The translations under genes were made by a program, and so were the position numbers. Below, piece by piece: positions 11,725-57,894 of a stretch of 64,000 nucleotides of DNA. The notes beneath the pieces were generated by a model. That model was given only the letters and a program-made list of their open reading frames with translations. It did no database searches and was not told the origin of the DNA. Each line of letters starts with the position of its first letter. The stretch's first letter is position 1. The DNA is from Octopus vulgaris. Its lineage: Eukaryota. Location: contig OX597814.1 of the NCBI GenBank assembly GCA_951406725.2, forward strand, positions 99,882,001 to 99,946,000. Direction: 5' to 3'.

Positions 11725-13082
11725 CAGGGTGGAGCAGAGAGTGGACGGACGTTTTTGTAAAATTCACAAAATCATTAAATTTTGCTGCAAGCAAATTTTA
11801 TTGACATCAGCGTGTTCGTATTGAATAAGCACTTGTGAAAATCAACTATGGACAAGAACATCCATCATGTAGTATCCGTCTTCATTGATGCATTTGTGAA
11901 GGCGTTCTTGAAAGTTAATTCTCACTCTCTTCTGCATTGCTTTGTCAATTTGGACGACTTCCACGCGAATAGCTTCCTTCTAATAATCTAATGTACGAGG
12001 GTTATGTGCATACACAAGTGCCTTGATGTTTCCCCACAAGAAATAATCACACATGGACAAATCGGGGGGCCGAGGGGGAGAAAGGAACGTCAGCAAACCT
12101 GGAAATGAGGCGGTCACCGAAGAGAGAGCGAAGAACATCCATTGATGCTCTGGGTGTGTGGGTCGTTGCTCCATCCTGCTGACACCACACACATCGAATA
12201 AGCATACGTTTTCGTCGTAATTAAGGCACAAAGAAGTTGTTTCATTTCGATGTAACGCTCGGAGTTCACAGTAACAGCATTTCCATTATTGTCTTAAAAA
12301 AATGAAGGATCTATGATGGCTGCTTTTCCAGCAGCACACCAGACCGTCACTTTTGGGCTGTGCAGTAGTCTTTTGTACAGTTCTCTCGGATTTTCAAGAA
12401 CCCTATAATGACAGTCTTGTTGGTTCCCCATGCCACTGATATGAAAATGAGCTTTACCACTCATTAACAAAATGAGGTTTTCATTTGCCTCAAAAATTGC
12501 TTCCACCTGGCGTGCGAAGTTAAGCCGCTGTGCATAGTCCCATGGTTTCAACTGTTGCCCAATTACCAATTTGTACGGGTGGAAATGCAGGTCTTCATAC
12601 AAAATACACCTTACCGATCGATTATTGATGCTAAGTTCAGTAGAATGCCTGCGAGCAGAGCGATTCGGACTCCGTATCAAAGCTTGTCTGACGCGTTCCA
12701 CATTTTCCGGGATCCTTACCGTTCGTGGCGCCCCCATCAATCTACCATTCATCAGTGTATTTTGTGTACGAAGTACATTCACCCAACGTAAGATTGTGTT
12801 ACGGGTGGGAACAGTCTGATTTCAGTGAATGTTGAAGTGACGCCGAAACTCACACTGAACAGCTGTGACAGACTCATTATTCTTCACGACTCATTATTCT
12901 TCACGTAACTGTCATAGGCAAACACACGATGCTCTATCGTCTACAGCGCCAAAGCTTCACCTAAAAAGAAAAAAAAGTACTAAGACACCACGGATCGAAG
13001 GGTACCTGTCGGACATATGTCCCTCCCACTGGGTCTGAATAATAGCCATTTCGAAAACGTCCGTCCTTACTGCACCAACTTG
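11725..13082 (-). mobile_element. Tc1/mariner superfamily DNA transposon (Tc3-like/DD37D-type transposase), decayed
   Basis: Imperfect TIRs CAGGGTGGAGCAG..GGACGGACGTTTT and AAAACGTCCGTCC..TGCACCAACTTG, with TA at the left end. Peptides PRTVRIPENVERVR..SPNRSARRHS, LHFHPYK, MSGKAHFH, KVTVWCA and PPRPPDLSMCDYFLWG. Confidence 0.88.
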
Positions 13083-17159: not shown

Positions 17160-17806
17160 GACACCTCGTCTGCTAGAGATGGCAGTAACTTAACATAATT
17201 ATATAATATACATTATATGAGCGTTGTAAAAATGAAGAAGGGGAAAGGGAGAAAGCGGAAGACTCCTCACATTGCAGTAGGTTTTATAAAACATTTATAA
17301 AGGAACCTACATAACTAGATATTTCCAGGCTGTTTTCCTCTTGAAGATGGGCCCATGAACCTGAACTACTAACGTTTTCTAAAATATAGGTATTGTTAGA
17401 AGTTTTCTATTTTCTCCTTTTAAGTTACATATATATTTTAAAATCTCAGTCTCTACGTGGTTCAGCTTAGTGTTTCTCAGTGCCCGAAGGAGAAATATCG
17501 GGTATGAACCCACCTCAACGTTATTCTCATTTATTCAATTTCTAGCTTTAAGTGGATTTCAAACTAGACAAAGTTAATAAGAAATCACACTATTCATTAA
17601 ATTTTATGTGTGTGTTTGCGCGTGTGTTTGTGTGTGCGTGCGTGCGCGCGCTTGCGAGTGTGTGTGTGTATGTGTGTATGGGGTGAAATACAGGGTGAGA
17701 CAGAAATATAGCAATGAATATCTACACACAAAACATATATATATATATATTTATATATCTATATTTAAGTTCACAATTATAAGCTTATGAGTTTATGAGC
17801 AAACAT

Positions 17807-17878
<72 letters not shown>

Positions 17879-17886
17879 ATATATAT

Positions 17887-18722
17887 ATATATAACGGGAA
17901 GCTTTATGAAAATAAACAAAAGACGAAGGCAGGTGGAAAACAAACGAACAATTGTATTAGTATGGCGCTCAGGAAATATAAATAAAACAAGTCTTTAACG
18001 TTTCGAGCCTACGCTCTTCAACAGAAAGATACACAGAGAGAGAAAAAACACAGAAAGAAGGAGAGAAAAAAAATGCGTGCAGTAGCTAACGAATCAACAT
18101 GGCGATCTGATTTCGGCCAGAGGTCAAAGATCAAACATGAGACGCGAGAGCGAAATAAGGGGAGATAATAGGGTTGAGGGACCAGCTAATAGTGCGTAGG
18201 AGGGGTCTGGATGTGTGTATGTATAGGGTTGGTGTATGTATTAGTATGTATAAGGGTGTGTGTGTGTGTGTATGAGAGAGTATTAGTGCGTAGGATTGGT
18301 CTGGACGTGCGTATGTATGGGGTTGGTGTATGTATTAGTATGTATTAGTATGTATTAGTACGTATTAGTATGTATAAGTGTGTGTGTGTGTGTATGAGAG
18401 AGTATAAGTGCGTATGCGGGGTCTGGACGTGTGTATGTATAGGGTTGGTGTATGTATTAGTATGTACTAGTATGTATTAGTACGTATTAGTATGTATTAG
18501 TTGGTGTATGTATTAGTATGGCACATCATATGTGATGTGATGTGTAAAGTCATGTGGTGTAGTGAGGAGAAGAGGGGGAGGGGGAGAAGAGGGGGGAGAA
18601 GGGGAAGAAGAGGGGGAGGAGAGGGGGAAGAGGAGAGGATGGGGGATGAAGGAGGAAAGAGGGAGAGGGGGAGAGAGAAGGGGAGAGAGGGAGTGAGGGA
18701 GCAGAGGGAAGGGGAAGAGGGA
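17887..18722 (-). repeat. 3' pseudo-LTR of the PLE
   Basis: Near-identical to 22333-23180. Contains the hammerhead motif, GTATTAGTAT-type internal repeats and a purine-rich tract. Confidence 0.93.
17992..18029 (-). ncRNA. Minimal type I hammerhead ribozyme variant in 3' pLTR
   Basis: Minus strand reads UCUUU-CUGUUGA-A-GAGC-GUAG-GCUC-GAAA-C-GUU-AAAGA: stem I UCUUU/AAAGA, 4-bp stem II, palindromic AACGUU stem III. Confidence 0.75.
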
Positions 18723-18935
18723 GGGAGAAAGAGGGAAGAAGGGAAGGGGAGTAGGGGTAAAAGGATGAAGGACTGAAGAAGTAGGGGTCGGGGGGAAAAG
18801 GGTAGGTGAGGAGTGGGGAGAGGGGGGTTAGATGAGGAGGGGGAGAGTTGAGACCAAATGGCATATAAGAGCGAAGAGAGAAGATTAATTCCTGTTCACG
18901 GCGCAAACGGGAATCCGGATGGCCTCTGTGTAAGG
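18550..18935 (-). pseudogene. C-terminal end of the GIY-YIG domain after a 1-nt frameshift
   Basis: SLHRGHPDSRLRREQELIFSLRSYMPFGLN supplies the conserved Glu and GLN motif of GIY-YIG. It lies in a different frame from the main ORF, shifting near the T-run at ~18935. Confidence 0.8.
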
Positions 18936-21125
18936 AAAACCGAACACAGATAGGTGTTGCAAGGAGTGACCGGTGGAGCGGAAATGGCGTGAGACCGGTG
19001 TGTCGTTCGCAAGGTGGATGTCACGAAGGTGTTCCGCGAACCGGTCAGCCAAGCGGCGTCCCGTTTGTCCGATGTACAAGGAATTGCAGAGAGAGCAAGA
19101 GATGCAATAGATAATATTGCTGGAGGTGCAGGTGAAGGAGTGGATGATGGGATAGGGTCGATGGTGGGTGCTAGTGAGGCGGGTGGTGTTGGAGAGGTAA
19201 GGGCAAGTGCGGCAACGTGGGCGGGAGCAGGGGAACGAGCCGGGTTGGGAGGTAGGGTCAGGGAAGGAGCTATGGACCAAAAGGTCTCGAAGGTTGTGGG
19301 CTCGTTTGAAAGAGGGGAGGGGTCGGTTAGGGAAGAGGTGTGAAGTGGACGGGTCGGACTGGAGATGACGGAAAGCTCGAAGAATGGTGCGTTGGAGACG
19401 TAGGCTCGTGGGGTGGTAAGTGAGGGGAAAATGGAGGCGGGAGACTACAGGGCGGGTTCGGGGAGAGAGAGCAGATACACGGTCCACGGACCGTGCTCTG
19501 GCAAGGGCGGTGTGGATAGTGGTGAGGGTGTATCCACGTAGGGTGAAGTGGTGAGCCATACGTTGAGACTGAGTCTCAAAGTCATGGTCGTCACTACAGA
19601 GCCTACGTAGACGGAGGAATTGGGAATAGGGGATGGAAAGCTTGGTGTGTTCTGGGTGGGAGGAAGAGAAGTTGAGGTATGAGTGTGAGTCTGTGTGTTT
19701 GTAGTGAATGGAGGTGGTAAGAGTGGAGTGAAGAATGCTAACCGAAATGTCGAGGAAGGAGACAGAGGTGTTGGAGATAGTGGAAGTGAAGTGGAGGGCT
19801 GGATGGAAAGATTGGACGAAAGAGAGGAAGGAATCTAGATGTTCGCGGGAGAGTGAGGTGGCACCGATAATGTCGTCAATGTAACGACCATATAGTTCAG
19901 GAGTGGGACCAGTGAAATTAGAGAATATTTGGGCCTCAACATAGCCAACGAACAGGTTCGCATAGTTGGGGCCCATTCGCGTTCCCATGGCCACTCTCGA
20001 GACCTGATGGTAGAACTCGCCTGCGAACGAGAAGCAGTTCAGAGTAAGGACAAGTTCGGCCAGACGAATGAGTGTGGAGGTGTCAGGTACAGGGTTAGAG
20101 CGGAGGTCAAGAAAGTGTCCAAGGGCCTGCAGTCCTTCGTGGTGAGGGATAACAGTATAGAGGCTTTGGATGTCCATAGTAAAAAGGATTTTGGAGGAGC
20201 CGGGAGGAAAGGAGAAAGAGTTGAAAAGCCGGAGAGCATGGTTGGTATCGTGGATGTGGGAGGGAAGAGATGCCACTAGGGGGGCAAGGACACGGTCGAG
20301 GTATTTAGAGATGAGCTCCGTGGGGCAGTTACAGGCGGAGACGATGGGGCGGCCAGGGTTGTTGGGTTTGTGGATTTTGGGGAGGAAGTAAATGGTGGGG
20401 GTACGTGGGGTTCGCACAATTAGGTTGGATGCGGTGCGGGGGAGACGGGAGGACGAGATGAGGTCTTGGACAGTAGAGGATACCGTCTGTTGGTAGCTAC
20501 GTGTGGGGTTAGAGGGCAGAGGGGAATAGAAGGAGGTGTCATTGAGTTGGCGGAAAGCCTCGGCCCTATAGAGGTCCGCGCGCCACACCACTACATCTCC
20601 ACCCCAGTCAGCCGGTTTGATGATAATGTCAGCGCGCCGTTGGAGGGAACGAAGAGCCAAGAGCTCAGCCGGGGAGATGTTGAGGCGGCGTTGGCGCCTG
20701 GAGAAGTTGAACCGTTCCAATGCACGCTGACAAGCGCCCGCGAAAAGATCCACTGCTAGGATCTGGCCAGGGGCAGGCGTCCACGGGGATGGTCGGCGGC
20801 CCAGGCCAGTGAAGCAGTCCTCTTCGTTGGGTGTGGGTGGCGAGTCGTGGTAATGCGCACCCAACCGGACACGGCGCACAAAGCTGTGGACATCAACTCG
20901 CGTCTGGAATTCCTTACAGGATGGAGTGAGGGGGATGAAACGGAGACCCCTACCAAGGACGGAGCATTCAGCCGCAGAGAGGGGAAGATAGGGGGGAATG
21001 GTAACAACAGACGGAAGTGGGGAAGGGGTGGGTGGAATAGAAGTAGGAGGGGTGGTAGGTCTCGTGGAGGTCTGAGGGGGAGGGATTGGGGAGGTGTGTG
21101 GGGGTGGTTGGGCGGGGCAGTAGGG
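18885..21125 (-). CDS. PLE reverse transcriptase + GIY-YIG endonuclease (main frame, frameshifted at both ends)
   Basis: Motifs include LSAAECSVLGRGLRFIP (read upstream of the listed ORF start, same frame, open back to a TAA at 21126-21128), KPADWGG, YFLPKIHK..PGRPIVS, TMDIQSLYT, AMGTRMGPNYANLF, YGRYIDD, SFLDI, the Cys linker CSRPRCRTC and NIIYCISCSLCNSLYIGQT..RFAEH. Confidence 0.93.
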   Translation of the reverse strand, partial: PYCPAQPPPHTSPIPPPQTSTRPTTPPTSIPPTPSPLPSVVTIPPYLPLSAAECSVLGRGLRFIPLTPSCKEFQTRVDVHSFVRRVRLGAHYHDSPPTPNEEDCFTGLGRRPSPWTPAPGQILAVDLFAGACQRALERFNFSRRQRRLNISPAELLALRSLQRRADIIIKPADWGGDVVVWRADLYRAEAFRQLNDTSFYSPLPSNPTRSYQQTVSSTVQDLISSSRLPRTASNLIVRTPRTPTIYFLPKIHKPNNPGRPIVSACNCPTELISKYLDRVLAPLVASLPSHIHDTNHALRLFNSFSFPPGSSKILFTMDIQSLYTVIPHHEGLQALGHFLDLRSNPVPDTSTLIRLAELVLTLNCFSFAGEFYHQVSRVAMGTRMGPNYANLFVGYVEAQIFSNFTGPTPELYGRYIDDIIGATSLSREHLDSFLSFVQSFHPALHFTSTISNTSVSFLDISVSILHSTLTTSIHYKHTDSHSYLNFSSSHPEHTKLSIPYSQFLRLRRLCSDDHDFETQSQRMAHHFTLRGYTLTTIHTALARARSVDRVSALSPRTRPVVSRLHFPLTYHPTSLRLQRTILRAFRHLQSDPSTSHLFPNRPLPSFKRAHNLRDLLVHSSFPDPTSQPGSFPCSRPRCRTCPYLSNTTRLTSTHHRPYPIIHSFTCTSSNIIYCISCSLCNSLYIGQTGRRLADRFAEHLRDIHLANDTPVSRHFRSTGHSLQHLSVFGFPYTEAIRIPVCAVNRN

Positions 21126-21730
21126 TTAGGTGTAGGTGGATGGAGCCTAACGGGAGGGGAGAAGGGGTTGTAGGGAGGGGCAGTGGGGTTAGGTGTGGGT
21201 GGATGGAGCCTATCGGGAGGGGAGAAGGGTGGTGGAGGAGTTGGGGTAGTGGCCTCGGGTAGGGTGGAATGGAAGACTGATTGGAGTTTACGAAGTTTGG
21301 TATCAGAAAGAAATTGATGGAAGAGTTGATTCAAATGGATAATGAAGCGTAGCGTGTTTGGAGCATAAAGAGGCGGCAGAGAGGAGAAGAAGGTGGAGAA
21401 AGCAGGAGGAAGAAGGCGGTTGATGGCATGTAGTTTGGAGAGATTGGAGCGAATGGTGGCCCGCATAAGGCGGTAAAATGTGGTGCGGAGTATGGGTAAG
21501 ATGGAAGAATCCGAGTGGAGAGCAGGGTGGAAGTGGAGGCGGAAACCTTTAGGGATGAGTCGGTGATGTAGGCAGCGGCTTAGGAAAGAGACATGGCTAG
21601 AGAAGCGGGTTTTTTTAAAAAGAAGTAGAGAGAGATTAACGGACGGCTGAAGGCAATATACAGGAAGAGAACGGAGATGATCCTTCAAACGGTGATGGAG
21701 GGTGAGGAGGTAGGACCTAGGATCCGGCAT
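20756..21730 (-). CDS. N-terminal part of the PLE polyprotein (first ATG 21730), out of frame with RT after a Pro-rich linker
   Basis: HVSFLSRCLHHRLIPKGFRL resembles the N-terminal region of PLE ORFs. It is followed by a Pro-rich linker. The last ~80 codons overlap the RT frame, which lies at -1. Confidence 0.75.
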   Translation of the reverse strand: MPDPRSYLLTLHHRLKDHLRSLPVYCLQPSVNLSLLLFKKTRFSSHVSFLSRCLHHRLIPKGFRLHFHPALHSDSSILPILRTTFYRLMRATIRSNLSKLHAINRLLPPAFSTFFSSLPPLYAPNTLRFIIHLNQLFHQFLSDTKLRKLQSVFHSTLPEATTPTPPPPFSPPDRLHPPTPNPTAPPYNPFSPPVRLHPPTPNPTAPPNHPHTPPQSLPLRPPRDLPPLLLLFHPPLPHFRLLLPFPPIFPSLRLNAPSLVGVSVSSPSLHPVRNSRRELMSTALCAVSGWVRITTTRHPHPTKRTASLAWAADHPRGRLPLARS

Positions 21731-22332
21731 GATGGGATAGCGGAAAAAAAACGTTCGAAAAAACAAAAAAAAACAAAAAACAAAAATTATCGTATGAAAA
21801 AAATAGAAAAAAAGGATAGCAAAAAAAGGGGAAAAAACAAACGTTCAAAAAAACAAAAAAATAATAATCCTATGAAAAAACTAGATAAGTAAGCGATAGG
21901 GGCAGAAAAGACGGGGCAAACGGAAAAGGGAAAGAAAGAAGGGAAGCAGAGAGAGGGGGAGGCAAAAAGGGGGGGTGCAGGCAGAGGAAACGGAGTATGG
22001 ACATCCAGAGAGGGAAGAAAGACGGAAAGGAGAACAAAAATTCAGAAAAATGTTGAAAGCATGAAATGAACGTAAAAAAAGTGGTAATATAAGAGAAAAT
22101 AAAAATACAACAAACGGGACAGTTTATGCGAACAAGTTCAAGGTGAGAAATGTGTAGACGTCGTGGTATATTTTTTAAGGATTTCACATCAATGCAAAGT
22201 CACTTTGATCCGCGAAAGAGAGGTGCAGCCAATGGTAAGTATCCAAGAGGTAAAGAAAATCCAAGGTAGAGGTAAGTGTTGATAATGGTATTGGTAGAAT
22301 ATAGGATGAAAGGGAGACCACGTGAGCGCATA

Positions 22333-23180
22333 ATATATAACGGGAAGCTTTATGAAAATAAACAAAAGACGAAGGCAGGTGGAAAACAAACGAACAATTG
22401 TATTAGTATGGCGCTCAGGAAATATAAATAAAACAAGTCTTTAACGTTTCGAGCCTACGCTCTTCAACAGAAAGATACGCAGAGAGAAAAAAACACAGAA
22501 AGAAGGAGAGAAAAAAAATGCGTGCAGTAGCTAACGAATCAACATGGCGATCTGATTTCGGCCAGAGGTCAAAGATCAAACATGAGACGCGAGAGCGAAA
22601 TAAGGGGAGATAATAGGGTTGAGGGACCAGCTAATAGTGCGTAGGAGGGGTCTGGATGTGTGTATGTATAGGGTTGGTGTATGTATTAGTATGTATAAGG
22701 GTGTGTGTGTGTGTGTGTGTGTATGAGAGAGTATTAGTGCGTAGGATTGGTCTGGACGTGCGTATGTATGGGGTTGGTGTATGTATTAGTATGTATTAGT
22801 ATGTATTAGTACGTATTAGTATGTATAAGTGTGTGTGTGTGTGTATGAGAGAGTATAAGTGCGTATGCGGGGTCTGGACGTGTGTATGTATAGGGTTGGT
22901 GTATGTATTAGTATGTACTAGTATGTATTAGTACGTATTAGTATGTATTAGTTGGTGTATGTATTAGTATGGCACATCATATGTGATGTGATGTGTAAAG
23001 TCATGTGGTGTAGTGAGGAGAAGAGGGGAGGGGGAAGGGAGAGAGGGGGAGAAGGGGAGGGGAAGAAGAGGGGGAGGAGAGGGGGAAGAGGAGAGGATGG
23101 GGGATGAAGGAGGAAAGAGGGAGAGGGGGAGAGAGAAGGGGAGAGAGGGAGTGAGGGAGCAGAGGGAAGGGGAAGAGGGA
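22333..23180 (-). repeat. 5' pseudo-LTR (5'-truncated tandem copy) of the PLE
   Basis: Direct repeat of 17887-18722, differing mainly in homopolymer/microsatellite lengths and a few substitutions. Confidence 0.93.
22438..22475 (-). ncRNA. Minimal type I hammerhead ribozyme variant in 5' pLTR
   Basis: Identical motif to 17992-18029. Confidence 0.75.
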
Positions 23181-32267: not shown

Positions 32268-32344
32268 CTGTGTTTTTCTCCCGTCCAGTTTTACACTCAG
32301 TATATGTTAAGTCGTGTGTTTATTTACCATACATTATATGATAG

Positions 32345-32518
32345 ATCGGTAGCCACTACACACATTTTTTTCTCTCCTTGTTTTTTTCTATGGCCCTTTC
32401 TGTAGAAGAGCATAGGCTCGAAACGTAAAAGTCTTTTTCAATTCCTGAGCGTTATACTAATACATCTGTCTGTTTTGCACACCACCTGTCTTCGTCTTTT
32501 GTTTTTTTCGTGAACTCT

Positions 32519-32522
<4 letters not shown>
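32345..32522 (+). mobile_element. Solo 3' pLTR fragment of a related PLE subfamily with hammerhead (32396-32431)
   Basis: Homologous to the reverse complement of 17890-18090. Reads CUUU-CUGUAGA-A-GAGC-AUAG-GCUC-GAAA-C-GUA-AAAG and ends in (TA)n. Confidence 0.85.
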
Positions 32523-32554
<32 letters not shown>

Positions 32555-47445: not shown

Positions 47446-47935
47446 GGCGGCGAGCTAGCAGAAACGTTAGCACGCCGGGCGATATGCGTAGCCGTATTTC
47501 GTCAGCCGTTACGTTCTGAGTTCAAATTCTGCCGAGGTCGACTTTGCCTTTCATCCTTTCAGGGTCGATTAAATAAGTACCAGTTACGCAATGGGGACGA
47601 TGTAATCGACTTAATCCGTTTGTCTGTCCTTGTTTGTCCCTTCTGTGTTTAGCCCCTTGTGGGTAGTAAAGAAATAGGTATTTGTTCTGTCTTTACGTTA
47701 AGGGCGGCAAGCCAGCAGAAACGTTAGCACGCGCCGGGCGAAATACTTAGCGGTATTTCGTTTGCCGTTACGTTCTGAGTTCAAATTCCGCCGAGGTCGA
47801 CTTTGTCTTTCATCCTTTCGGGGTCGATAAATTAAGTACCAGTTACGCACTGATATCGATGTAATCGACTTAATCCTTTTGTCTGTCCTTGTTTGTCCAC
47901 TCTATGTTTGGCCGCTTGTGGGTTGTAAAGAAATA
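47446..47935 (+). mobile_element. Tandem dimer of SINE family B
   Basis: Copies at 47446-47676 and 47703-47935, flanked by an imperfect 18-bp direct repeat (47426-47443 / 47936-47953). Confidence 0.88.
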
Positions 47936-48589
47936 ACTATTTCACTTCCCTTGTGTTGTTAATGTATGTATCGACATTCAGCTTTTATATACAGATAACT
48001 AACAAAAATATTATGGTGCGTTGTTTAGTCCTAACAGAAATAGCAGCCAAATCTGCAAAGTTTGTATTGATTAATGTGAGTTTGAAAATTCTATGCCTTA
48101 AAAAAGACGGGACGAAAAGGGGCAAAACAATGACTTTGAGTAAAACAACAACATCGTACTCCTCTAAAATTCTACCAATGGTTTAATTATGAACTGTAAT
48201 ATTCAATTGCGTGAAAGACATATTAAGAACTTTACTAATTCGAAATCAGAGTTAGATGTCAAAAACAGAGGGGATGTTAGACTGGAGAAAACGATCGTAC
48301 AAAATTATTTCTTGAGAAGAAAGTAGTGCTGCAATGCCAAACAGCAAACTCCTATAAAATCTTGACAGGCAACTGGTTGTAACTCCTGGTTGAAATCATT
48401 TCACTTCATGCTATTGATGGAGTAAAGTATGATATTTATAGATTTCCAGATCCCTATCACCACTGAATGTGAAGTATTACGTATACGAACGAAATCAGCC
48501 GATGTTTTAATCCATTATGTTGATAAAAAAGAAAAGAAAAAAAAAAAGAAAGTGCCTCAAAAAACATAACTGCCACCCAAAGATCCCTG

Positions 48590-56870: not shown

Positions 56871-57894
56871 ATAGCCGAAAAATTTAGCAGAACTGCACAA
56901 AACATTTAGCAGAACTGTCAGATTTTCAAAGAAGTCGTATTGTTGGACAATCTGAGGCTCGTCTTAGACAGCGAAAAATTGCCGAAAATCTTCAAATTCC
57001 TCTTGCTACTGTTAATAGAATTATTGTGCATTTCAAAAGCCAAGGAAAAGAATCAACAGATTCTCGTCCCGGTCGACCTGGGCTCGTAGAAAGGAAGCTT
57101 CACTGTTTGAAGAGAATTGTGGAAAACAAACCCCGTTCGAAAGTTTCTGACATTGCAAAACAGCAAAAAGTTACTCCAAGAACGTGTGTTACATATCTGC
57201 ATAAGCTTGGGTATTATGAACATTGCGTTAGAAGAAAACCTCTCCTTCAACTAATTAAGATCATGAAAAAGAGAAATGCGCTAAGGAGATGTCAGAGAAA
57301 TCCAGTTCATTTTGGGATAGAGAGATTTTCGCAGATGAATCCAGATTTGCATTATTTTCAGACAGTACACGTGTTTGGGTATGAGGGTTGCCCAATCAAG
57401 AATTTGATTTGAAACGACTCCAACTAACTGTGAAACATGGCGGTATCTCTGTAATGGTATGGGGAGCTGTCACCAGCAATGGTCGTTCTGAGCTGATCGA
57501 ATGTGTTGGAACCATAAACTCTGAAAAATGCATCGAAATACATAAGCAAGGACTACGTCCAATGTATTCACATAATAACATAACGAAAAATGTTTTTTTA
57601 TTCATGGAAGATGGGGCTCCATGCCACACAGCGAAAAGGAATCAATAATGGCTGACTGAAAATGGGATCAAAAAACTTCCTTGGCCGAGCCAATCTCCTG
57701 GCATGAATCCAATTGAAAATCTTGGAACGTACGAAAAACTCGACAGAAACCTAAAACTAAAGATGAAATGTTTCGATTGTTGCGTGAAAAGTGGGCAGAA
57801 ATTTCACAAGAGACAATCACAAAGCTCATCAGTTCAATGCCAAAAAGAGTTTCTGAATTAAAATCTGTAAAGGGAATGTCAACTAAATACTTAA
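56871..57894 (+). pseudogene. Tc1-family (DD34E) transposase pseudogene
   Basis: [70 protein letters not shown] and SMPKRV..TKY; frameshifts and stops. TIRs not resolved. Confidence 0.9.

What the first reader, a model, noticed from the sequence alone, without database searches (positions are those of the whole stretch)
17887..23180. Young, near-intact Neptune-type Penelope-like retroelement with ribozyme-bearing pseudo-LTRs
Seen: RT and GIY-YIG motifs, a Cys-rich linker (CSRPRCRTC), CxxC inside GIY-YIG, and two near-identical ~840-bp direct repeats with the 3' end fused to (TA)n. Known: PLEs form partial tandems (pLTRs), and Neptune-clade elements carry this Cys pattern and are associated with microsatellites. 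Inference: this is a recent insertion of a possibly still-active family. The copy has only two frameshifts and two visible substitutions at conserved positions (KPADW for KPADK, VSRVAMG for G-VAMG).
Basis: partly seen in the sequence, partly recalled or inferred. Interest (0 to 1): 0.7.

Follow-up and report, generated by a model that had tools for sequence, protein, structure and literature searches.

The report
Dead copy of young Penelope retrotransposon
This is a broken copy of a young, abundant and likely still mobile jumping gene of a known kind (Penelope-like, Neptune type); its end repeats carry a hammerhead-like RNA motif with one normally fixed core letter changed throughout the family, whose cutting is untested, and the way copies end hints at how such elements may rebuild their end repeats.

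Summary
Confirmed in outline. The minus strand holds one 4,446-nt Penelope-like unit behind an 848-nt 5'-truncated second copy (pseudo-LTR; 2 substitutions in 837 aligned sites), fused to (TA)n. The protein has an RT whose predicted fold matches telomerase best, a CX4CXXC linker and a CCHH GIY-YIG: Neptune type by motif, with no reference tree. This copy is dead, not near-intact: a private deletion removes the endonuclease's last third and seven conserved residues are changed. The family is young: 3,064 exact copies of its 38-nt end motif, uninterrupted ORFs in 26 of 52 top-scoring long loci, and zero-difference ORFs on different contigs. The 'ribozyme' has no Rfam hit. It is a minimal-hammerhead-like motif with U at core position 6, family-wide and shared with a sister family; activity untested. 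Short copies pile up at about 220 nt (13 of 44), upstream repeats of long copies never do (0 of 40). That suggests an RNA start there and a circular or re-entered template for long copies. The scan's earlier notes report similar stub pile-ups and core variants on other DNA. Ordinary element, modest mechanistic leads.

The parts
22333..23180 (-). Upstream pseudo-LTR: 5'-truncated second copy of the unit's last 848 nt (CT-rich tract, 122-bp repeats, hammerhead-like motif)
   Evidence: lengths in other loci run from about 64 to 2093 nt
22545..22558 (-). Hotspot of 5' ends of short family copies (mode at 22551, about 220 nt from the 3' end; same site at 18106); inferred RNA start
   Evidence: a contig of run X6 has a loose (AT)n end at 22551; sister-family stubs start at the same TCGCCATG motif
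22438..22475 (-). Minimal hammerhead-like motif, upstream copy: stem I UCUUU/AAAGA, core CUGUUGA (U at position 6, window 22467), extra A, stem II GAGC/GCUC, GAAA, palindromic ACGU; predicted cut after GUU (22443/22442)
   Evidence: sequence; no Rfam hit
21731..22332 (-). 5' UTR of the unit, pyrimidine-rich; begins right after the invariant junction CCCG-TTATATAT
   Evidence: contigs cover it and no splice joint is listed
18828..21730 (-). Single ORF (about 969 aa in the family if the stop after GLNSPPLLI is the true one), broken in this copy: helical N-terminus, Pro-rich linker, RT, thumb, Cys linker, GIY-YIG
21101..21233 (-). 63-bp tandem repeat coding a disordered Pro-rich insert that most aligned homologues lack; the first frameshift lies in the C-run at its edge, shared by 15 of 49 copies, possibly an assembly under-call
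   Evidence: pLDDT under 50 at residues 157-238
20595..20606 (-). DKG motif changed to DWG, and A380D
   Evidence: K in 19 of 19 homologues; only 2 genomic matches to the DWG letters
19806..20375 (-). RT core (FTMD, GxAMG, YIDD)
   Evidence: Pfam RVT_1; fold of an uninterrupted family copy matches TERT at ranks 1-12
19203..19229 (-). CX4CXXC linker (CSRPRCRTC) followed by a 24-aa spacer
   Evidence: compared by eye with Fig. S2 of PMC8557442
18846..19115 (-). GIY-YIG endonuclease with CCHH motif; a 1-nt deletion at 18937 shifts the frame before the conserved Glu and the terminal GLN
   Evidence: 1 of the 100 listed among 948 matches has the deletion, the window itself
17887..18722 (-). 3' UTR part that is duplicated as the pseudo-LTR
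17992..18029 (-). Minimal hammerhead-like motif, downstream copy (identical 38 nt)
17805..17894 (.). (TA)n target; the element's own last 8 nt (TTATATAT) run into it
   Evidence: (TA)n follows the 3' end in 102 of 112 loci by a strict rule

Best explanation
It is a broken genomic copy of a young, high-copy Penelope-like retrotransposon family of Neptune type that likely moves by nicking (TA)n repeats and copying its RNA from the nick, and that likely rebuilds its upstream repeat by copying one template more than once around. Shown: structure, motifs, copy numbers, target, breaks in this copy. Inferred steps: (1) RNA starts inside the upstream repeat about 220 nt before the junction; (2) the GIY-YIG nicks (TA)n and the nicked end pairs with the element's terminal UUAUAUAU; (3) priming on an RNA that still has its 5' end gives 220-nt stubs; (4) long copies come from a template with no free 5' end at that point, either a unit-length circle (hammerhead cut, then ligation) or a jump back into the 3' repeat of the same RNA, so synthesis passes the junction and stops at random and leaves a pseudo-LTR of variable length. 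The U6 motif is predicted to cut weakly, and only as a dimer or with protein help.
For: RT and GIY-YIG domains; TERT is the best structural match at ranks 1-12; linker and spacer like the Neptune rows of Fig. S2 in PMC8557442. 3,064 exact 38-mers, 948 matches in the EN region; 26 of 52 long loci uninterrupted; zero ORF differences for L005/L008 and L046/L047, on different contigs and with different 5' ends. (TA)n at the 3' end in 102 of 112 loci. Invariant junction with 8 nt of TA. 5' stops at 212-228 nt in 13 of 44 single-pass copies against 0 of 40 upstream repeats, Fisher p 1e-4. In several loci (L034, L039, L048, L050, L051) the two repeats are much closer to each other than to any other locus, and locus-private ORF variants stand in both copies at L016, L029 and L042. 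Stem I covaries across hammerhead families in this genome (CUUU/AAAG, AUUU/AAAU, ACAC/GUGU).
Against: No reference tree for Neptune, which is itself paraphyletic (PMC8557442, passage). No raw RNA reads: runs are contigs and their RNA status is a guess. A change at core position 6 is deleterious in print (A6C: PMC7151607, PMC3088659), and U6 favours a rod that pairs part of the core in three of four U6 motifs folded, so hammerhead cutting and a circle are unproven. In vitro, hammerhead cleavage was not needed for insertion by a Poseidon element and its priming site was not homologous to the target (PMC11167929). Some loci have lineage markers in only one repeat (L023, L029), and in L016, L018, L023, L029 and L042 the within-locus distance of the CT tract is no smaller than to the nearest other locus. 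The two samples in the Fisher test were chosen differently. The window's repeats differ less (2 of 837) than its 15 private ORF changes predict (p 0.008), unexplained except by inheritance from an unsampled source or by conversion.
Confidence: 0.72

Rival explanations
1. Same element, but the hammerhead-like motif no longer cuts. U6 is a fixed loss, the stem-loop is kept as a protein-binding or promoter element, and upstream repeats are rebuilt only by a template jump of the RT.
For: A6 changes lower cleavage strongly in Mg2+ (PMC7151607; PMC3088659); U6 motifs fold with the core more paired (0.39-0.55) than A6 relatives with the same stem II (0.19-0.42); hammerhead mutants did not affect insertion in vitro (PMC11167929); 220-nt stubs span the predicted cut site, so their template was uncut.
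Against: The 24 nt 3' of the searched pattern stay 79-96% identical in 18 of 20 sister-family loci, whose ORF DNA, where present (2 loci), is 81-83% identical; GAAA, the palindrome and stem I are all kept.
Confidence: 0.45
2. Upstream repeats are simply inherited: long read-through transcripts from host promoters or tandem arrays (such as L008) are copied linearly, so no circle or jump is needed.
For: L008 holds at least two further units in tandem; lineage markers in one repeat only at L023 and L029.
Against: Linear copying can only shorten the upstream repeat; many sub-lineages each carry their own markers in both repeats; 19 of the 20 loci extended upstream have repeats of about 0.9-1.7 kb, one 2.1 kb.
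Confidence: 0.2
3. The 220-nt pile-up is an RT pause at RNA structure or a preferred microhomology with (TA)n, not the RNA's 5' end; or the stubs are a self-copying non-coding subfamily.
For: The site begins with AT; a weak hairpin is predicted around it; no direct RNA 5' end data.
Against: A pause should also stop second-pass synthesis (0 of 40); the hairpin is no better than shuffles (z -0.28); stubs carry the same lineage markers as long copies and no stub-only marker was evident. Self-copying stubs would still need an RNA start there.
Confidence: 0.2
4. The window copy is really intact and its breaks are assembly errors.
For: C-run lengths in the assembly are often shorter than in contigs of public runs (after GLNS: 3 of 52 loci have seven C, against about half of the depth in X1 and all in X3 and X6), so the frameshift at 21101 may be an under-call.
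Against: The deletion at 18937 removes the G between two T-runs rather than shortening a run, and is private; seven conserved-site substitutions are not homopolymer errors.
Confidence: 0.05

Closest known systems
Neptune-clade EN+ Penelope-like elements (as described in PMC8557442; passages and supplement parts 54-55 read)
   Same: Single ORF, RT then CX2-5CxxC linker then CCHH GIY-YIG; long linker spacer as in Neptune1_Nv, Neptune-1_Ac and DrerioNep1; partial tandem; 5' truncation; microsatellite bias.
   Different: Pro-rich 63-bp-repeat insert of about 80 aa after the N-terminal helices; few inverted 5' copies were seen; no 30-40-nt optional tail seen at outer 3' ends.
Minimal hammerheads (min-HHR) of metazoan PLE pLTRs (PMC4209133; parts 1-2 of 4 read)
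   Same: Short stem I, extra base between A9 and G10.1, G10.1-C11.1 pair, palindromic 15.2-16.2, one copy per pLTR.
   Different: U instead of A at core position 6, family-wide (3,064 against 12 matches); stem II only 4 bp; cut triplet GUU. The text read names only the U3-A8 core variant; its supplementary alignments were not seen.
Penelope of Drosophila virilis (PMC2377424; abstract and discussion read)
   Same: Full unit behind a variably truncated copy; RNA start inside the pLTR (inferred here, shown there); the paper names pLTR regeneration as unexplained.
   Different: Penelope/Poseidon lacks the Cys linker; no intron was found here.
Poseidon of Anolis, PAc (PMC11167929; parts 1-2 of 4 read)
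   Same: EN+ PLE with hammerhead in the pLTR, AT-rich targets, priming inside the RNA.
   Different: PAc primes without homology to the target and leaves a tail; here every unit ends in 8 nt of TA that match the target, and the motif lies about 600 nt upstream of the start codon.
Recently active Penelope-like families of Octopus vulgaris (PMC13282606; passages read)
   Same: 31 families and 336 insertions under 2% divergence are listed there; this family fits that class if the host is an octopus, which is inferred and not tested.
   Different: That paper gives no clade, ribozyme or mechanism in the passages seen (0 occurrences of Neptune).

Membership tests
Penelope-like elements (EN+) | Telomerase-like RT with DKG motif | tested here: met
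   TERT structures at ranks 1-12 of the fold search of family copy P0003; DKG in P0003 and 110 of 121 proteins counted; DWG in the window copy
Penelope-like elements (EN+) | C-terminal GIY-YIG with CCHH motif in the same ORF | tested here: met
   Pfam score below cut-off, motif matches Fig. S2 of PMC8557442 by eye
Penelope-like elements (EN+) | Partial tandem forming pseudo-LTRs, frequent 5' truncation | tested here: met
Penelope-like elements (EN+) | Retained intron in pLTR or 5' UTR | tested here: inconclusive
   no spliced junction for one candidate intron in the genome; no GT-AG joint among the 15 of 33 joints shown; optional feature
Neptune clade | CX2-5CxxC linker between RT and EN with a long spacer | tested here: met
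   CX4CXXC plus 24 aa; Nematis rows have a short spacer, Poseidon none
Neptune clade | RT phylogeny with named Neptune, Nematis, Poseidon references | not testable with these tools
   no named reference proteins were available as tool sequences; homologues are unnamed or 'uncharacterized'
Neptune clade | Insertion bias for microsatellites | tested here: met
   102 of 112 loci
Naiad clade | N-terminal GIY-YIG and CxC motif | tested here: not met
   EN is C-terminal
Minimal type I hammerhead | Core C3 U4 G5 A6 N7 G8 A9, G12 A13 A14, A15.1-U16.1, H17 | tested here: not met
   all met except A6, which is U
Minimal type I hammerhead | Stems I and II, extra base before G10.1, palindrome for dimer stem III | tested here: met
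   covariation across families; A6 relatives with the same stem II exist in the genome (582 matches)
Minimal type I hammerhead | Self-cleavage | not testable with these tools
   needs a bench assay or raw RNA ends

The most novel reading that the evidence does not exclude
The family runs on a working U6 hammerhead, a core variant I did not find in print, that cuts and closes a unit-length RNA circle. Long insertions are written by going round this circle from a (TA)n nick, while uncut linear RNA gives the 220-nt stubs. With dozens of uninterrupted, nearly identical copies, it would be a ready system to test how Penelope elements regenerate pseudo-LTRs.
Probability: 0.2. Interest if true: 0.65.

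Novelty: new member of a known kind. Interest (0 to 1): 0.3.

Why it matters
The copy in the window matters little: it is one dead insertion among thousands. The family is useful because it is young and abundant enough to read mechanism from the genome. How pseudo-LTRs are rebuilt was named as open in PMC2377424, and the hammerhead's role is called unclear in PMC8557442. The contrast between stubs that stop at one point and upstream repeats that never do gives a concrete test of circle against template jump, and the U6 motif with natural A6 relatives gives a matched pair for a cleavage assay. The only full-length PLE protein studied in vitro in the papers read is a Poseidon, so an uninterrupted Neptune copy would be a new reagent.

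Tried and rejected
Rfam found no hammerhead; its hits were microsatellite-driven microRNA models, rejected. PDB sequence search gave 0 hits. A 100-140-aa low-complexity C-terminal tail seen in 25 of 26 uninterrupted loci was rejected as a likely C-run under-call, since most contig depth has the run length that gives a stop six residues after GLN, as in homologues; real slippage in some copies is not excluded. A 76-nt intron from just after the hotspot into the hammerhead core was tested: 0 spliced junctions; the sister family lacks the GT, and PLEs keep introns, so this is no proof either way. An apparent acceptor at 21870 is a private letter of this copy. Expression: no RNA holder is on record; contigs of two runs guessed to be RNA cover the ORF in frame, which is not counted as evidence. 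A lineage of dead copies moved in trans was sought and not found. An 18-nt inverted match between the two flanks was set aside as microsatellite chance. The k-mer walk breaks in the repeats beyond about 600 nt, so long lengths are taken. The paper on dimeric PLE hammerhead variants (Lunse et al.) is not held; only its citation was seen. Sequence look-up in earlier findings was blank.

Full report
Observation. On the minus strand, 23180 to 17887, lies one 4,446-nt unit preceded by an 848-nt copy of its own 3' end. The two repeats align with 835 matches, 2 substitutions and a few indels in simple repeats. The sense strand is strongly pyrimidine-rich (C 1694, T 1346, A 856, G 550). Three overlapping frames carry an N-terminal part from the ATG at 21730, an RT (Pfam RVT_1, E 5e-7), the linker CSRPRCRTC and a GIY-YIG with an inner CxxC (E 0.0055, under the cut-off). 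The 3' end runs into (TA)n at 17805-17893. No long host exon was seen in the window.

Family. A DNA search found 3,720 candidates and scored 40, of which 37 cover almost the whole query at 95-100%. A protein search scored 47. Of the 52 distinct loci fetched, 26 have an uninterrupted frame from the start to GLN. These are top-scoring hits, so the share is not genome-wide; two of the 26 owe the frame to compensating indels, and L045/L049 share a 5' end and lie on late-numbered contigs, so they may be one insertion. Among 49 alignable ORFs the mean distance is 25 substitutions in about 2,890 nt, with several sub-lineages and two pairs at zero (L005/L008, L046/L047) on different contigs with different 5' ends. 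Private changes look near neutral (131 synonymous of 384, 30% expected, p 0.08); changes shared by three or more copies are 15 synonymous of 32 (p 0.05), a weak sign of selection on source lineages. The 38-nt end motif has 3,064 exact matches and a 28-mer in the endonuclease 948.

State of this copy. It has 15 private ORF substitutions. Seven changes hit conserved residues, among them K377W in the DKG motif (K in 19 of 19 homologues), A380D, G580R and P736T. The 1-nt deletion at 18937 shifts the frame before the conserved Glu and the terminal GLN of the endonuclease; it was seen in 1 of 49 aligned copies and 1 of 100 listed matches. The frameshift at 21101 lies in a C-run, is shared by 15 of 49 copies, and the longer run is in all depth of X3 and X6 but only about 14% of X1 depth, so it may be an assembly under-call. 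With a borrowed rate (0.0036 per site per Myr, quoted in PMC13282606) the ORF gives about 1.4 Myr and the repeat pair about 0.3 Myr; the two disagree (p 0.008), which suggests an already mutated source or later conversion.

Classification. An AlphaFold model of uninterrupted copy P0003 (mean pLDDT 82) matches telomerase RT at ranks 1-12 in the PDB. The best homologues are 55% identical over the RT-EN region, named ones from shark, snails, a crinoid and anthozoans. The linker CX4CXXC with a 24-aa spacer resembles the Neptune rows and not the Nematis or Poseidon rows of Fig. S2 of PMC8557442, compared by eye; 92 of 121 proteins counted carry the same pattern. No tree with named references could be built, so Neptune membership rests on motifs and target.

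Target and junction. (TA)n follows the outer 3' end in 102 of 112 loci by a strict rule; of the other ten, one continues as a tandem unit, one (L026) is joined to a sister-family tail, five have short or imperfect TA and three failed the anchor but show TA by eye. The inner unit-to-unit junction is always CCCG-TTATATAT-TATGCG, with no variable TA length. So the element carries 8 nt that could pair with a nicked (TA)n strand (inference), unlike the homology-free priming reported for PAc (PMC11167929), and tandems are not made by independent insertions into a copy's tail.

Hammerhead-like motif. Rfam has no hit. By eye each repeat holds UCUUU-CUGUUGA-A-GAGC-GUAG-GCUC-GAAA-C-GUU-AAAGA, the minimal dimer-type layout of PMC4209133, but with U at position 6. 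U6 is the family state (3,064 matches; a 31-mer with A6 has 12). A sister family (80% protein identity in the 2 of 20 loci that reach the ORF; 1,408 matches) has the same core, with U6 in 93 of the 100 matches listed. Relatives with A6 and the same stem II exist (582 matches), and 6,044 matches fit the textbook PLE core, mostly one other family among the 100 listed. Stem I covaries across these families. A6C is known and slows cleavage in Mg2+ (PMC7151607 part 1; PMC3088659 passages). A search for 'hammerhead' with 'A6U' listed one paper, on twister ribozymes, not read; searches listed nothing on it by title. The supplementary alignments of PMC4209133 and the Lunse paper were not seen and may hold it. 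Predicted monomer folds pair the U6 core more than A6 relatives. Cutting is untested.

Where copies begin. I fetched 60 of the first 62 motif places listed (one tandem pair belonging to long locus L041 was skipped; all on contig C1). BLAST put 14 of 60 starts at 214-226 nt from the 3' end and none at 227-290. A stricter walk on 58 (2 lacked the anchor) gave 13 of the 44 that reach 212 nt; among upstream repeats of long loci (42 of 52 measured, 10 without a junction match) 0 of the 40 that reach 212 nt stop there (p 1e-4). Upstream repeats range from about 64 to 2,093 nt. Several sister-family stubs start at the same TCGCCATG motif. Earlier notes of this scan suggested reading such pile-ups as RNA starts; the second-pass contrast was computed here. 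The two samples were selected differently, which limits the test.

Mechanism. Shown: architecture, target, junction, stop pattern. Inferred: the RNA starts near 22551, as Penelope's starts in its pLTR (PMC2377424, discussion); priming on RNA with that free end yields 220-nt stubs; long copies use a template without that end, a circle as proposed in PMC4209133 or a jump into the 3' repeat, and pass the junction. In support, both repeats of a locus often share locus-specific states; against, a few loci are mosaic and five show no closer match within the locus in the CT tract. Circle and jump cannot be told apart here, and with U6 the jump is at least as likely.

Verdict. A new member of a known kind. 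Interest 0.3.

Noticed in passing
window 32335-32525 (+): Short stub of the sister family with a decayed hammerhead-like core (CTGTAGA), ending in (TA)n.
   Followed up: partly
window 12294-12821 (-) and 56888-57412 (+): Open frames that read like Tc1/mariner transposase remnants (recalled resemblance).
   Followed up: no
window 47446-47942: 259-bp unit in 1.9 tandem copies, 87% alike; looks like a common SINE-type repeat (recalled).
   Followed up: no
L018 (G000:C1:106431220) and window 20605-20606: The same two-letter change (DKG to DWG) stands in exactly two copies, 6.5 Mb apart on one contig and in different sub-lineages: conversion, recurrence or mis-polishing.
   Followed up: partly
L008 and L223: Array of a 1,166-nt repeat plus at least two and a part of a third unit in tandem, zero ORF substitutions from L005 in the first unit; a possible source of read-through RNA.
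   Followed up: partly
L026 3' end: The unit is joined at CCCG to the tail of the sister family instead of (TA)n.
   Followed up: no
L023: Upstream and downstream repeats carry different lineage markers 3' of the hammerhead-like motif, a mosaic.
   Followed up: partly
L174-L202: Family with textbook core and stem II GAGC/GCUC whose position 17 is often G, which the NUH rule (recalled) says is not cut.
   Followed up: no
runs of organisms A-D: Four species labels hold 70-76% of the sampled words, about what the window copy's own divergence allows, so the family is nearly identical across them.
   Followed up: partly
window 21744-21892: Three 39-51-nt repeats in the 5' UTR, two with an AACGTT palindrome like the hammerhead's.
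   Followed up: no
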